Virus record (IMG/VR): IMGVR_UViG_637000107_000010
Source: a virus
Taxonomy: Duplodnaviria; Heunggongvirae; Uroviricota; Caudoviricetes
Length of the DNA: 64,000 nt
Direction: 5' to 3' (one strand)
The position numbers were made by a program. Positions 24,001 through 27,000 of the stretch are shown piece after piece. Each line of letters begins with the position of its first letter. Positions within the stretch are counted from its first letter, which is position 1.

Positions 24001-27000
24001 GGCTAAAGGTGGCAGAATTTATTTTGTACAAACCAATGGTTATGGCTTTTGGTATAGAGAAAAAAGTTATTGCTTTTTGACGTAAAAACTGCTTCAATTC
24101 CGGTAAGCTTCGCAAAGCTGTACCGCGAGGCGAATAGCAGACATGGACATTTGAAAGAGCCCGCTTTTTGCGGGTTTTTTTATGACTGAAAAACGGCACG
24201 GGGCGTTAAACGCGCTGGTGGTTGCTAATACCGGTCTTTCAACTTGCTGGCTTTTTCGACAAGAGTTATTGGTATGTCACGTTAACCGGAAAAGGGAAAA
24301 AGACATGCTAAAACAGCAGGATATGACAGAAACCGCCAGAGTGGTGTTTAATGAATTAAGCGTTACCGAACCGGCGACAGTCGGGGAGATTGCGCAGAAT
24401 ACTTACCTTTCACGCGAACGCTGCCAGTTAATACTGACCCAGCTGGTTATGGCGGGTCTGGCAGACTATCAGTGCGGTTGTTACAGACGCATTCAGTCCT
24501 GAAGGCTTTTTATTTGTGGTAAATGGGCGGCTGGTGGGGGGGGCGGCACCTGTCAGTCCTTTGCTTATGTGTTGATGATAATTTACCTTTTGGGGCTATA
24601 ATTGAGCTAACCAATTGCTAATGAAAGTAAAATTATAATGGCTGTTGTCTGTTCAGTTATCATGGTTTGCTCCCCAATTAATATTTTTCTTGAAAAGGAT
24701 ACGTTGTCACTTAAGCCAGGCTCAGTCGTTCTGGCCACCAAATGCATCAGGGAGCTTTTCCTTATGCATTATGGCAAAGTTAAAATTGTCGATATAAGCN
24801 AATCCGTCGTAAGTCAATATCTGGAAAGTCAGCATAAGCTGACGAGGACTCGTCTGACTGACATTCCGCTTTACCTGTTNCTGGAACCCAACAANCCTGC
24901 GTTGGCTGCGGCTTTAATTACCAGCCAGGGATTTTCCGGAGAGGTCACGGATATGTTTCTTATGATGGCCTGCCTGTCTCTGTTTGAAACAGATGAACGG
25001 ATGTCATTGTTTTTAAGTGGATGTTTATCCAGCATAAGTGCCAAAGTCAGGGCGATAATTCAGACAGATATATCAGCAAGCTGGACGCTTGGTGCGATTG
25101 CTCTACAGTTGCATATGAGTGAGAGTTTGTTAAAGACAAAACTGAAAAATGAAGGGGGCATGTTCAGTCGCTTGTTGCTGGAAGAGCGGATGCGTGTTGC
25201 TGTAAATATGTTATGTTCCCGGTATGGATATGGACAGGCTGTAGCAGAAAAATGTGGTTATTCAAGCCGGTCCTACTTTATTTCTGTATTTCACCGCTAT
25301 TATGGCTTCCCGCCAGACAGATATGTATCCAGGCAAGGGCTTGATTATTGATTTTCATCTGATTATTATTTTTTGGCTCGGCCCTTTAGCTCAGTGGTGA
25401 GAGCGAGCGACTCATAATCGCCAGGTCGCTGGTTCAAATCCAGCAAGGGCCACCATCACAAACCGCCATTAGCTTATCAGGAAGAGCAGACGACACCATA
25501 ACAGGGTTGTTGGTGCGGGGCCGGGTCCCCGATGGCGGTCCATTATCGGTATTCTGCGTTGTTAGCTCAGCCGGACAGAGCAATTGCCTTCTAAGCAATC
25601 GGTCAGTGGTTNGACTCCACTACAACGCGCCACACTTATTTTCCAGGCTCGCTTCGGCGGGCCTTTTTTGTATCTGCGCCACGCCCGGCGCATACCAACC
25701 ACAGAGCCTTTCGGGGGTGAGCTTACGGAGTGGTCAGTGTGACTTTCTCTGTGGGCAGATCGCTCCCGGGCGTTGGCTCACCCACCCAAAGGAACGTCAC
25801 GATGTTTGGAATCTTCAAAAAGAAAACCCGCAGAGCGGCAACGGAAATTAAAAAGTTTGAAAAACGCGATCTGGCACAGGTGGTGATTAACGCCGCATAC
25901 CTGGTGGCCTGTGCAGATGGTGAATGTGAGGCATCCGAGAAAGCGAAGATCGAACAGGTACTGCGGTAATCAGCCTGCGCTGTACGCGTTTACGTCAGAA
26001 ATTAATGCGATTAGCGCAACCATTATCGGTCAGCTGGATACGAACTTTAAAACTGGTCGTCGTGCGGCGTTACGTGAGATNGAGGATGTGAAACACGATA
26101 CGCGTGAAGCGGAAGATGTGCTGGATGTGGCGGTGGCCATTGCGGAGGCAGACGGCGAAATTGAGCCGGAAGAGCGCAAGGTGCTGGAAGAGATTGCCGG
26201 TGTTCTGGGTCTTCGTCTGGAGAATCACCTGTGACGGTAAAACTGCGCCTGNCTGTGGCTGCACTCCTGCTGTTTCTGGTGGTGATGGTGGATTTCACCA
26301 GCAGAATCATGTCGGTGCTGGCGGATGGGGTGCTGGTCTGCGGCATTGTGGTATTGCTGTGGCCGGTGATAAAAAGAAACAGCCTGCATAATGCTTGATT
26401 TTTTTGTTTGCTGTTTATTAAAAACACTTCTGCATGGTGAATCCCCCTGTGCGGAGGGGCGATCAGCAANNAGGTATATGGGATAATCGCGGATTCAGGT
26501 GCTGATACTGAATTCACCGGGAGGCACCCGGCACCATGCAAGAAAAAGAATGTGCATGCAAACATGCCCCTCTCCGGAGGGGCTTTTTTATGGGTAAAAA
26601 ATGCCCGAATGGGTTCGGGCAATAGCATGAGATACTGATATTGTTGTGTTGTTATCGTGTGGATTTTAACCAGGGTTTATCAGGCTGCGCAACTGCGTGG
26701 CCTTTTTTCATTTCTTGGGCTGTAGTCCCCGAGTGTCATTCAGGCTTCCGGACTACAGCCAGCCCACTCCATATCTGATTTAATNCACTATCCCGGCCGG
26801 GAGGAATAATGACATTTAAACATTATGATGTTGTCAGGGCGGCGTCGCCGTCAGACCTTGCGGAAAAGCTGACACACAAACTGAAAGAGGGCTGGCAGCC
26901 ATACGGCGGACCGGTTGCCATTACGCCGTACACACTGATGCAGGCGGTGGCTATTGAAGGAGAGCCACAGGTCGGCCCTTCATCTGAGCCGGATTGGTAC

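What the first reader, a model, noticed from the sequence alone, without database searches (positions are those of the whole stretch)
24638..25351. AraC-family regulator carried as prophage cargo between the Q-like gene and the tRNA genes
A 237-aa AraC/XylS-type regulator lies in an AT-rich insert, separate from the phage regulatory circuitry. Prophage-encoded AraC-like regulators are known to rewire host virulence and acid-resistance expression in pathogenic E. coli; which class this one belongs to cannot be decided here.
Basis: partly seen in the sequence, partly recalled or inferred. Interest (0 to 1): 0.4.

Follow-up and report, generated by a model that had tools for sequence, protein, structure and literature searches.

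The report
psrB, a known prophage acid-resistance regulator
This gene is psrB, an already characterised AraC-type regulator carried by an E. coli O157:H7 prophage that turns on the host's acid-resistance genes and indirectly dampens type III secretion, so the finding is real but ordinary.

Summary
Window 24638-25351 (+) is an intact 237-aa AraC/XylS-type gene in an AT-rich ~800-bp cargo cassette (GC 0.43 against 0.52). It lies between a Q-like antiterminator gene and two tRNA genes of a lambdoid prophage.

- The protein matches RefSeq WP_000301797.1 at all 234 determinate residues. The three X residues come from N bases.
- It is the only AraC-like gene in EDL933 OI-57.
- It is 90.7% identical to PsrA (ECs1087, Sp4), matching the published 90%.
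- It is only 37-38% identical to PatE.

It is a full-length homolog of the native acid-fitness-island regulators GadW (34%) and YdeO (31%), and of GadX over the DNA-binding domain (41%). A confident AlphaFold model has an Rns/ToxT-like two-domain fold.

According to the literature, PsrB binds the hdeA and gadE promoters and raises acid resistance. Through GadE and YhiF it represses LEE type III secretion.

Novelty: already known. Interest is low. Side observations: the host prophage is an IS-rearranged, defective mosaic; the sRNAs STnc100 and AgvB lie just downstream; and modern assemblies place psrA in the yccA prophage, not in OI-50.

The parts
24638..25351 (+). psrB coding sequence (237 aa, AraC/XylS family; N-terminal cupin-like regulatory domain about residues 1-100, helical linker, two HTH motifs about 134-232)
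   Evidence: ORF. Pfam HTH_AraC/HTH_18. Matches WP_000301797.1 at all 234 determinate residues, the same protein as in EDL933 OI-57 and Sakai ECs_2191. AlphaFold pLDDT 88. Fold hits Rns/CsvR/ToxT and GadX DNA-binding domain.
24575..25377 (+). AT-rich cargo cassette: the promoter-like element, the 5' untranslated stretch, psrB and the 26 bases after its stop codon. A DNA methyltransferase gene occupies this slot in the sister prophage.
   Evidence: Homology to L004 ends at 24574 and resumes at 25378. GC 0.43 against 0.52 for the window. L004 has a methyltransferase at 6030-7088.
24575..24602 (+). sigma-70 promoter-like element (ATGATA-16 nt-TATAAT, 10/12) 35 nt upstream of the ATG; function not shown
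   Evidence: Scan; the number of sites in the region is no more than chance. TATAAT is invariant and ATGATA is kept in 5 of 6 psrA, psrB and Stx2k-phage loci (ATGAGA in the sixth), but these loci are about 95% identical overall.
23514..24080 (+). Q-like late antiterminator gene (DUF1133 type)
   Evidence: Pfam DUF1133 3.7e-105, Phage_antitermQ 5.9e-8. PHROG 753.
24152..24181 (+). intrinsic terminator hairpin with U-run just downstream of Q. By position it is inferred to be the tR'-like terminator that Q would override.
   Evidence: RNAfold gives -18.2 kcal/mol with a 13-bp stem followed by U7; sequence read. The role is inferred.
24305..24502 (+). 65-aa conserved small ORF (weak TrmB-like wHTH), phage backbone gene preceding the cargo slot
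   Evidence: Annotated WP_000917763.1. PHROG 331 E=3.9e-37. Also present upstream of the methyltransferase in the sister prophage and in the Stx2k phage.
25380..25455 (+). tRNA with CAU anticodon (ileZ-type tRNA-Ile2; ARAGORN calls it Met)
   Evidence: RefSeq and Sakai annotate it as tRNA-Ile, anticodon cat.
25556..25632 (+). tRNA-Arg (UCU), argO-type

Best explanation
The gene is psrB (prophage-encoded secretion regulator B; z2104 in EDL933, ECs_2191 in Sakai). It is a moron-type cargo gene of the lambdoid prophage integrated at ydfJ (OI-57 right half / Sp11) of E. coli O157:H7.

The protein is a two-domain AraC/XylS activator and a xenolog of the chromosomal GAD-island regulators GadW, YdeO and GadX.

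Published work on this very protein says the following. It binds the hdeA promoter (-132 to -45) and the gadE promoter and activates them. That raises the glutamate-dependent acid-resistance and chaperone systems and improves survival at pH 2.5-3.5 and passage through the mouse stomach. The increase in GadE and YhiF in turn represses the LEE, so type III secretion falls.

Shown here: the identity of the gene, its family, its fold, its cassette boundaries and its genomic slot.

Inferred: it is transcribed from its own promoter-like element at the cassette edge in the lysogen, probably subject to H-NS-type silencing because it is AT-rich. Q-dependent read-through from the late promoter may add to this on induction.
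For: Identity:
- The window protein equals WP_000301797.1 at 234/234 determinate residues.
- The gene DNA equals EDL933 except for 3 N.
- The same protein lies at EDL933 CP008957 1905274-1905987 and in Sakai Sp11 as ECs_2191.

Location:
- The window ends with three NleG-family effector genes, dinI and ydfJ, 99.4% identical to the right end of the EDL933 island.
- The review places nleG2-3, nleG6-2 and nleG5-2 (z2149-z2151) at the end of OI-57 and psrB = z2104 in OI-57.
- tblastn finds only one Psr homolog across the two loci covering OI-57.

Paralog triangulation:
- O157 genomes carry two psr copies.
- The other copy (Sakai Sp4 ECs_1087, WP_000261909.1) is explicitly called psrA in PMC13502914.
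- It is 215/237 = 90.7% identical to the window protein, matching the published 90%.
- PatE (CP-933H, WP_000246059.1) is only 37-38% identical.

Family and mechanism:
- Pfam AraC HTH.
- NCBIfam's best full-length match is YdeO at 2e-30, followed by GadX.
- BLASTP: GadW 34% full length (2e-40), YdeO 31% (3e-33), GadX 41% over the DNA-binding domain.
- The closest solved sequence is the GadX DNA-binding domain, 2.2e-18.
- The AlphaFold model has pLDDT 88.3. Fold hits are Rns, CsvR and ToxT over the full length (E about 1e-10) and the GadX DNA-binding domain at rmsd 1.5 A, TM 0.89.
- Function is taken from the literature as summarised in PMC10877973, PMC8565820 and PMC8147483.
Against: - All activity statements rest on the literature, and I could read only reviews. 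The primary papers (Tree 2011, Bender 2012, Yang 2015) are not held.
- The z2104 assignment is by island position and uniqueness, not by reading the original AE005174 record, which is not in the collection.
- One N (24800) could in principle give a stop codon.
- The host prophage in this window is rearranged: IS629 sits right after the esterase gene, followed by inverted late genes. Expression context could therefore differ from EDL933.
- The promoter-like site is no more than a consensus match (4 sites found against 4.2 expected).
- Per the review, psrB deletion alone has little effect on secretion. Its phenotypes were seen mainly on overexpression or complementation.
Confidence: 0.93

Rival explanations
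1. It is PsrA rather than PsrB: the other O157 Psr paralog, reported to be required for ruminant persistence and for repression of type III secretion, but not to enhance acid resistance.
For: The two proteins are 90.7% identical and occupy the same Q-to-tRNA slot in similar prophages. The window's late region from 35.7 to 54 kb is 98.7% identical to Sp4, the psrA prophage.
Against: The window protein differs from the Sp4 / yccA-prophage protein at 20 of the 22 PsrA/PsrB diagnostic positions that are readable, and shows the PsrB residue at every one. Positions 55 and 81 are masked by N. psrA is stated to be ecs1087 on Sp4. The window's early region, its two-tRNA arrangement (psrA has three), the nleG cluster and the ydfJ junction are those of Sp11 / OI-57.
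Confidence: 0.03
2. It is a PatE-type regulator (CP-933H / OI-8 class).
For: Same superfamily, same N-terminal M..CSVI motif, same reported targets (hdeA and the gad genes).
Against: Only 37-38% identity to EDL933 PatE. The genomic context differs: in CP-933H, PatE lies among tail-fibre genes, pinE and a GIY-YIG-domain gene, not after Q.
Confidence: 0.01
3. The gene is a silent or decaying remnant on a defective prophage with no current regulatory role in this strain. It could be a pseudogene hidden by an N, or never expressed.
For: The prophage is clearly defective: IS629 at 28783-30092, inverted head and lysis genes, ISEc8. The neighbouring TerB gene is frameshifted. N24800 could give TAA. 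Deletion of psrB alone had little effect on secretion in published work.
Against: The ORF is otherwise identical to the gene in EDL933, the strain in which PsrB was characterised. The EDL933, Sakai and FDAARGOS_293 copies encode the same intact protein, and 392 records match the 1.2-kb locus at >=99%. The upstream region is conserved. Induced PsrB has clear phenotypes in acid and in mice, according to the literature.
Confidence: 0.03

Closest known systems
PsrB (z2104 / ECs_2191), prophage-encoded secretion regulator B of E. coli O157:H7 (Tree et al. 2011; Yang et al. 2015, as summarised in PMC10877973)
   Same: Identical protein at all determinate residues. Same island (OI-57 / Sp11). Same slot between Q and the ileZ and argO tRNAs. 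Same downstream nleG effector cluster and ydfJ junction.
   Different: Nothing in the gene itself apart from 3 ambiguous bases. The surrounding prophage in this window has an IS629 insertion after the esterase gene and a rearranged, Sp4-like late region not seen in EDL933 or Sakai.
PsrA (ECs1087, Sakai Sp4 / yccA prophage)
   Same: 90.7% identical protein, 94% identical DNA. Same cassette, same conserved upstream region, same slot after Q. PerC/Pch-family gene nearby.
   Different: 22 substitutions, 17 of them in the N-terminal regulatory half. Followed by three tRNAs rather than two. Reported to affect type III secretion and ruminant persistence, but not acid resistance.
PatE (z0321, CP-933H / OI-8)
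   Same: Same YdeO/GadW-like subfamily of AraC regulators. Reported to bind the same hdeA promoter segment and to activate gad genes.
   Different: Only 37-38% identity, 247 aa, different prophage and gene neighbourhood.
GadW / YdeO / GadX, chromosomal AraC-family regulators of the E. coli acid fitness island
   Same: Full-length homology to GadW (34%) and YdeO (31%). DNA-binding domain 41-43% identical to GadX and superposable at 1.5 A. Shared regulon (gadE, hdeAB).
   Different: Those are core-genome genes under EvgAS, RpoS and GadY control. PsrB is horizontally acquired prophage cargo. It falls far below the NCBIfam equivalog cut-offs (106 against 348 bits for YdeO).
Rns / CsvR / ToxT virulence regulators (solved full-length structures)
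   Same: Same two-domain architecture (cupin-like N-domain plus double HTH), Foldseek E about 1e-10.
   Different: 18-20% identity, TM only about 0.5. PsrB is about 30 residues shorter. Fatty-acid binding, which defines the regulation of Rns and ToxT, has not been tested for PsrB.

Membership tests
AraC/XylS family of transcription regulators | C-terminal ~100-aa DNA-binding domain with two helix-turn-helix motifs | tested here: met
   Pfam HTH_AraC 49.9 bits (cut-off 26.6) and HTH_18 37.6 bits (cut-off 33.6). The model's C-domain superposes on the GadX DNA-binding domain at rmsd 1.5 A, TM 0.89.
AraC/XylS family of transcription regulators | N-terminal regulatory or dimerisation domain of the cupin-like type found in the Rns/ToxT/GadX branch | tested here: met
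   AlphaFold model pLDDT 88.3, beta-strands at residues 3-54 followed by helices. Full-length Foldseek hits to Rns, CsvR and ToxT, E 7e-11 to 1.6e-7. TM is only about 0.5, so this is similarity at the fold level only.
Psr (prophage-encoded secretion regulator) family, PsrB orthologue | Sequence identity to the OI-57 gene z2104 of EDL933 | tested here: met
   234/234 determinate residues identical to the only AraC-like gene in EDL933 OI-57. The z-number is assigned from the island's published extent and uniqueness. The original AE005174 record was not available.
Psr (prophage-encoded secretion regulator) family, PsrB orthologue | About 90% identity to PsrA | tested here: met
   90.7% to ECs_1087, which is named psrA in PMC13502914. 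Published value is 90%.
Psr (prophage-encoded secretion regulator) family, PsrB orthologue | Located on a prophage, associated with T3SS effector loci and Pch/PerC-family regulators | tested here: met
   Lambdoid prophage context. nleG-family effector genes at window 59.4-62.2 kb. PerC-family gene in the same prophage in EDL933 and FDAARGOS_293. I did not locate a PerC gene in the rearranged window itself.
Psr (prophage-encoded secretion regulator) family, PsrB orthologue | Binds and activates the hdeA and gadE promoters; raises acid resistance; represses T3S through GadE and YhiF | not testable with these tools
   Literature only.
PatE-type regulators | Orthology to z0321 of CP-933H | tested here: not met
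   37-38% identity to WP_000246059.1. Different neighbourhood.
YdeO / GadX equivalogs (NCBIfam) | Score above the curated equivalog cut-off | tested here: not met
   YdeO 106 bits against cut-off 348. GadX 87 bits against cut-off 500. Homolog, not equivalog.

The most novel reading that the evidence does not exclude
The N-terminal domain of PsrB has the Rns/ToxT-type cupin fold. Almost all PsrA/PsrB differences (17 of 22) fall in that half, and natural alleles are mosaics of the two. So the Psr paralogs might be ligand- or signal-sensing variants, for example responsive to gut fatty acids as Rns and ToxT are. The N-domain rather than the DNA-binding domain would then decide whether the outcome is acid resistance (PsrB) or T3SS and persistence control (PsrA). 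That would make prophage cargo a small-molecule-gated input to the GAD/LEE switch.
Probability: 0.08. Interest if true: 0.5.

Novelty: already known. Interest (0 to 1): 0.1.

Why it matters
PsrB is one of the horizontally acquired regulators that plug into the E. coli acid-fitness island. It helps explain the very low infectious dose of O157:H7, and the inverse coupling of acid resistance and LEE type III secretion. Recognising it in a window is useful for annotation, because RefSeq calls it only 'helix-turn-helix domain-containing protein'. It adds no new biology. The practical value here is that the open question 'Psr-type or PatE-type?' is closed, and the gene is shown to be intact.

Tried and rejected
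- Primary papers could not be read: Tree 2011 (PMC7099609), Yang 2015 (PMC4288888) and Bender 2012 (PMC3416394) are not held. The function summary therefore comes from reviews and from PMC13502914.
- The original EDL933 record NC_002655, which carries Z tags, is not in the collection. I used the resequenced EDL933 assemblies CP008957 and CP120944, plus Sakai.
- I looked for psrA in CP-933N / OI-50 as the reviews state. Neither EDL933 CP008957 (L005) nor Sakai Sp6 (L008) has an AraC-like gene there, and Sakai Sp8 is unrelated. I found psrA instead in the yccA prophage.
- A literature search for ECs2191 found nothing.
- Source names in the protein collection are uninformative: 'helix-turn-helix domain-containing protein'.
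- The first structure prediction, with 13 close homologs, was unusable (pLDDT 59). It was repeated with 60 diverse homologs.
- The promoter scan is not statistically informative. It did not list the obvious Q-proximal terminator, so I confirmed that by folding.
- PatE-type and PsrA identities were considered and rejected on sequence.

Full report
**1. Observation**

The ORF listing shows an ATG-initiated ORF at 24638-25351 (+), 237 aa.

Family evidence:
- Pfam assigns the C-terminal half to HTH_AraC (E=3.1e-13) and HTH_18 (E=2.7e-9), both above their gathering scores.
- PHROG 1450 matches the whole protein (E=3.8e-99).

Neighbours:
- The upstream gene at 23514-24080 is a Q-like antiterminator: DUF1133 3.7e-105, Phage_antitermQ 5.9e-8, PHROG 753.
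- The downstream features are tRNA(CAU) at 25380-25455 and tRNA-Arg(UCU) at 25556-25632.
- RefSeq and the Sakai annotation call the first one tRNA-Ile (ileZ).

Composition: the gene has GC 0.437, against 0.519 for the window.

What it missed is a conserved 65-aa ORF (24305-24502) between Q and the regulator. It belongs to the phage backbone.

**2. Identity**

A 1.2-kb query around the gene matches E. coli O157:H7 chromosomes at 99.7%. It is present over at least 80% of its length in 698 of 5426 complete E. coli genomes.

The clean translation from a matching genome is WP_000301797.1. The window protein agrees with it at all 234 determinate residues. The three X residues come from N bases at 24800, 24880 and 24895. 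Over window 19362-26539, every difference from EDL933 is an N, apart from a 1-bp insertion and one substitution, both in the neighbouring TerB gene.

In Sakai the gene is ECs_2191 on prophage Sp11. It is annotated there with a shorter start. In resequenced EDL933 (CP008957) it lies at 1905274-1905987. That prophage abuts ydfJ and ends with three NleG-family effector genes.

The review literature gives OI-57 as z2048-z2151, ending with nleG2-3, nleG6-2 and nleG5-2 (z2149-2151), and places psrB = z2104 in OI-57. tblastn with the protein finds exactly one homolog across the two loci that cover OI-57.

The window is collinear with this island:
- 4772-19362 and 19362-26539 match at 99.8-99.9%.
- 59463-64000 (nleG genes, dinI, ydfJ) matches at 99.4%.

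**3. Paralog triangulation**

O157 genomes carry two psr-type copies. The second, WP_000261909.1, lies in the prophage next to yccA. This is EDL933 CP120944 locus L015 and Sakai Sp4 ECs_1087.

A 2026 paper states 'psrA (ecs1087, Sp4)'. This protein is 215/237 = 90.7% identical to the window protein, matching the published 'PsrB shares 90% identity with PsrA'.

The PatE candidate in CP-933H (WP_000246059.1) is only 37-38% identical.

The gene is therefore PsrB. It is not PsrA and not PatE.

**4. Anatomy of the locus**

Compared with the left-hand prophage of OI-57, homology runs to 24574 and resumes at 25378. The sister prophage has a DNA methyltransferase gene in between. The psrB cassette is thus about 800 bp of AT-rich DNA in a cargo slot that is bounded by the 65-aa backbone ORF and the tRNA genes.

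In CP-933N the whole stretch equivalent to 24300-25851 is absent. In a functional Stx2k phage, a 91.6% homolog sits in the same slot, directly upstream of the tRNAs and stx2AB.

A strong hairpin plus U-run (24152-24181, -18.2 kcal/mol) follows Q. By position I infer that this is the terminator Q overrides. psrB would then be read through on induction, as stx is.

A promoter-like element (ATGATA-16 nt-TATAAT, 24575-24602) starts exactly at the left edge of the cassette. It is conserved across psrA, psrB and Stx2k-phage loci. Neither the scan statistics nor this conservation among close relatives proves function.

**5. What kind of protein it is**

NCBIfam's best match is YdeO across the full length (residues 1-229, E=2e-30). 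It is far below the equivalog cut-off. GadX comes next.

Direct BLASTP against K-12 proteins:

| K-12 protein | Identity | Extent | E-value |
|---|---|---|---|
| GadW | 34% | full length | 2e-40 |
| YdeO | 31% | full length | 3e-33 |
| GadX | 41% | DNA-binding domain | 1e-23 |

All of them except GadX share the N-terminal M..VCSVI motif.

Among solved structures, the best sequence match is the GadX DNA-binding domain (2.2e-18), followed by Rns, CsvR and ToxT.

A first AlphaFold run on 13 close homologs failed (pLDDT 59). After a profile search and a 60-sequence alignment, the model reached pLDDT 88.3 and pTM 0.86. Foldseek then gives full-length hits to Rns, CsvR and ToxT (E from 7e-11 to 1.6e-7, TM about 0.5). 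The DNA-binding domain superposes on GadX at rmsd 1.5 A, TM 0.89, 43% identity.

PsrB is thus a compact member of the GadW/YdeO/Rns branch of AraC regulators.

**6. Mechanism**

From the literature as summarised:
- PsrB binds the hdeA promoter (-132 to -45, the same segment as PatE) and the gadE promoter.
- It activates the AR2/GAD system and the HdeAB chaperones.
- It improves survival at pH 2.5-3.5 and passage through the mouse stomach.
- By raising GadE and YhiF, PsrA and PsrB indirectly repress LEE type III secretion.
- Deleting psrB alone has little effect on secretion.

The homology to GadW, YdeO and GadX found here gives a simple rationale: a prophage-borne xenolog of the native regulators acts on their promoters. 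I could test none of these activities.

**7. Distribution**

The family is essentially confined to E. coli and Shigella. Paralog tiers lie at about 91-93, 88, 78, 74, 64 and 58% identity, and PatE-like proteins at about 39%. Psr-type genes with DNA at least about 85% identical occur in 726 of 5426 genomes, median two copies, maximum four.

**8. Verdict**

The feature is real and correctly described, and it is already known. Interest is low.

The most novel reading my evidence leaves open concerns the N-terminal domain. It holds 17 of the 22 PsrA/PsrB differences. It might confer distinct signal sensitivity, by analogy with the fatty-acid-binding regulators Rns and ToxT. This is pure inference from fold similarity.

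Noticed in passing
window 28783-54052: The prophage carrying psrB is a rearranged, defective mosaic. IS629/IS1203 sits at 28783-30092, right after the esterase gene. At 30.1-35.7 kb there are inverted ClpP-type protease, split lambda-type portal, large terminase and DUF1441 genes, best matched by a different O157 prophage at ~1.75-1.80 Mb. The stretch 35705-54052 is 98.7% identical to Sakai Sp4 (inverted Rz, lysozyme and holin genes; ISEc8 at 38937-41376). None of 5426 complete genomes covers >=80% of window 14000-38000 in one place. This could be a real IS- or prophage-mediated recombination, or an assembly chimera.
   Followed up: partly
EDL933 loci L005 and L015; Sakai loci L008 and L016: Reviews place psrA (z1789) in OI-50 / CP-933N. 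But resequenced EDL933 and Sakai Sp6 have no AraC-like gene there. The 90.7% paralog is in the yccA prophage (Sp4, ECs_1087). The published layout 'z1789 ... z1793 esterase' fits the Sp4-type arrangement of AraC gene, three tRNAs and esterase. This suggests the original EDL933 assembly was chimeric between the two prophages, or that the OI assignment in the reviews is out of date.
   Followed up: partly
window 26403-26657: Two Rfam sRNAs lie between the TerB-like gene and the esterase gene: STnc100 (26403-26595, +, 145.9 bits) and the prophage anti-sRNA AgvB (26596-26657, -, 96.5 bits). Terminator-like hairpins at 26566-26583 and 26602-26621 match their 3' ends. STnc100 may correspond to the EvrS sRNA described next to psrA; I did not check this.
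   Followed up: no
window 25803-26234: The TerB-family gene downstream of the tRNAs carries a 1-bp insertion (G at 25965) and one substitution (25984) relative to EDL933. This splits it into two ORFs. It is either a real frameshift or a sequencing error.
   Followed up: partly
L011 and L012, 8001-8714 (E. coli O103:H2 12009 and another EHEC): The psr allele P0003 is a mosaic. It is PsrB-like at 16 of the 17 N-terminal diagnostic positions and PsrA-like at all 5 C-terminal ones. This indicates intragenic recombination between psr paralogs.
   Followed up: partly
window 24305-24502; L004 5682-5879: A conserved 65-aa ORF (PHROG 331, weak TrmB-like wHTH, frameshifted in the EDL933 psrA locus) always precedes the cargo slot, whether the cargo is psr or a DNA methyltransferase. 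Its function is unknown.
   Followed up: no
whole window: 122 N bases are scattered through the window, densest around 27.2-27.75 kb in the esterase gene. They cause many X residues in translations and lower the apparent identity to references.
   Followed up: no
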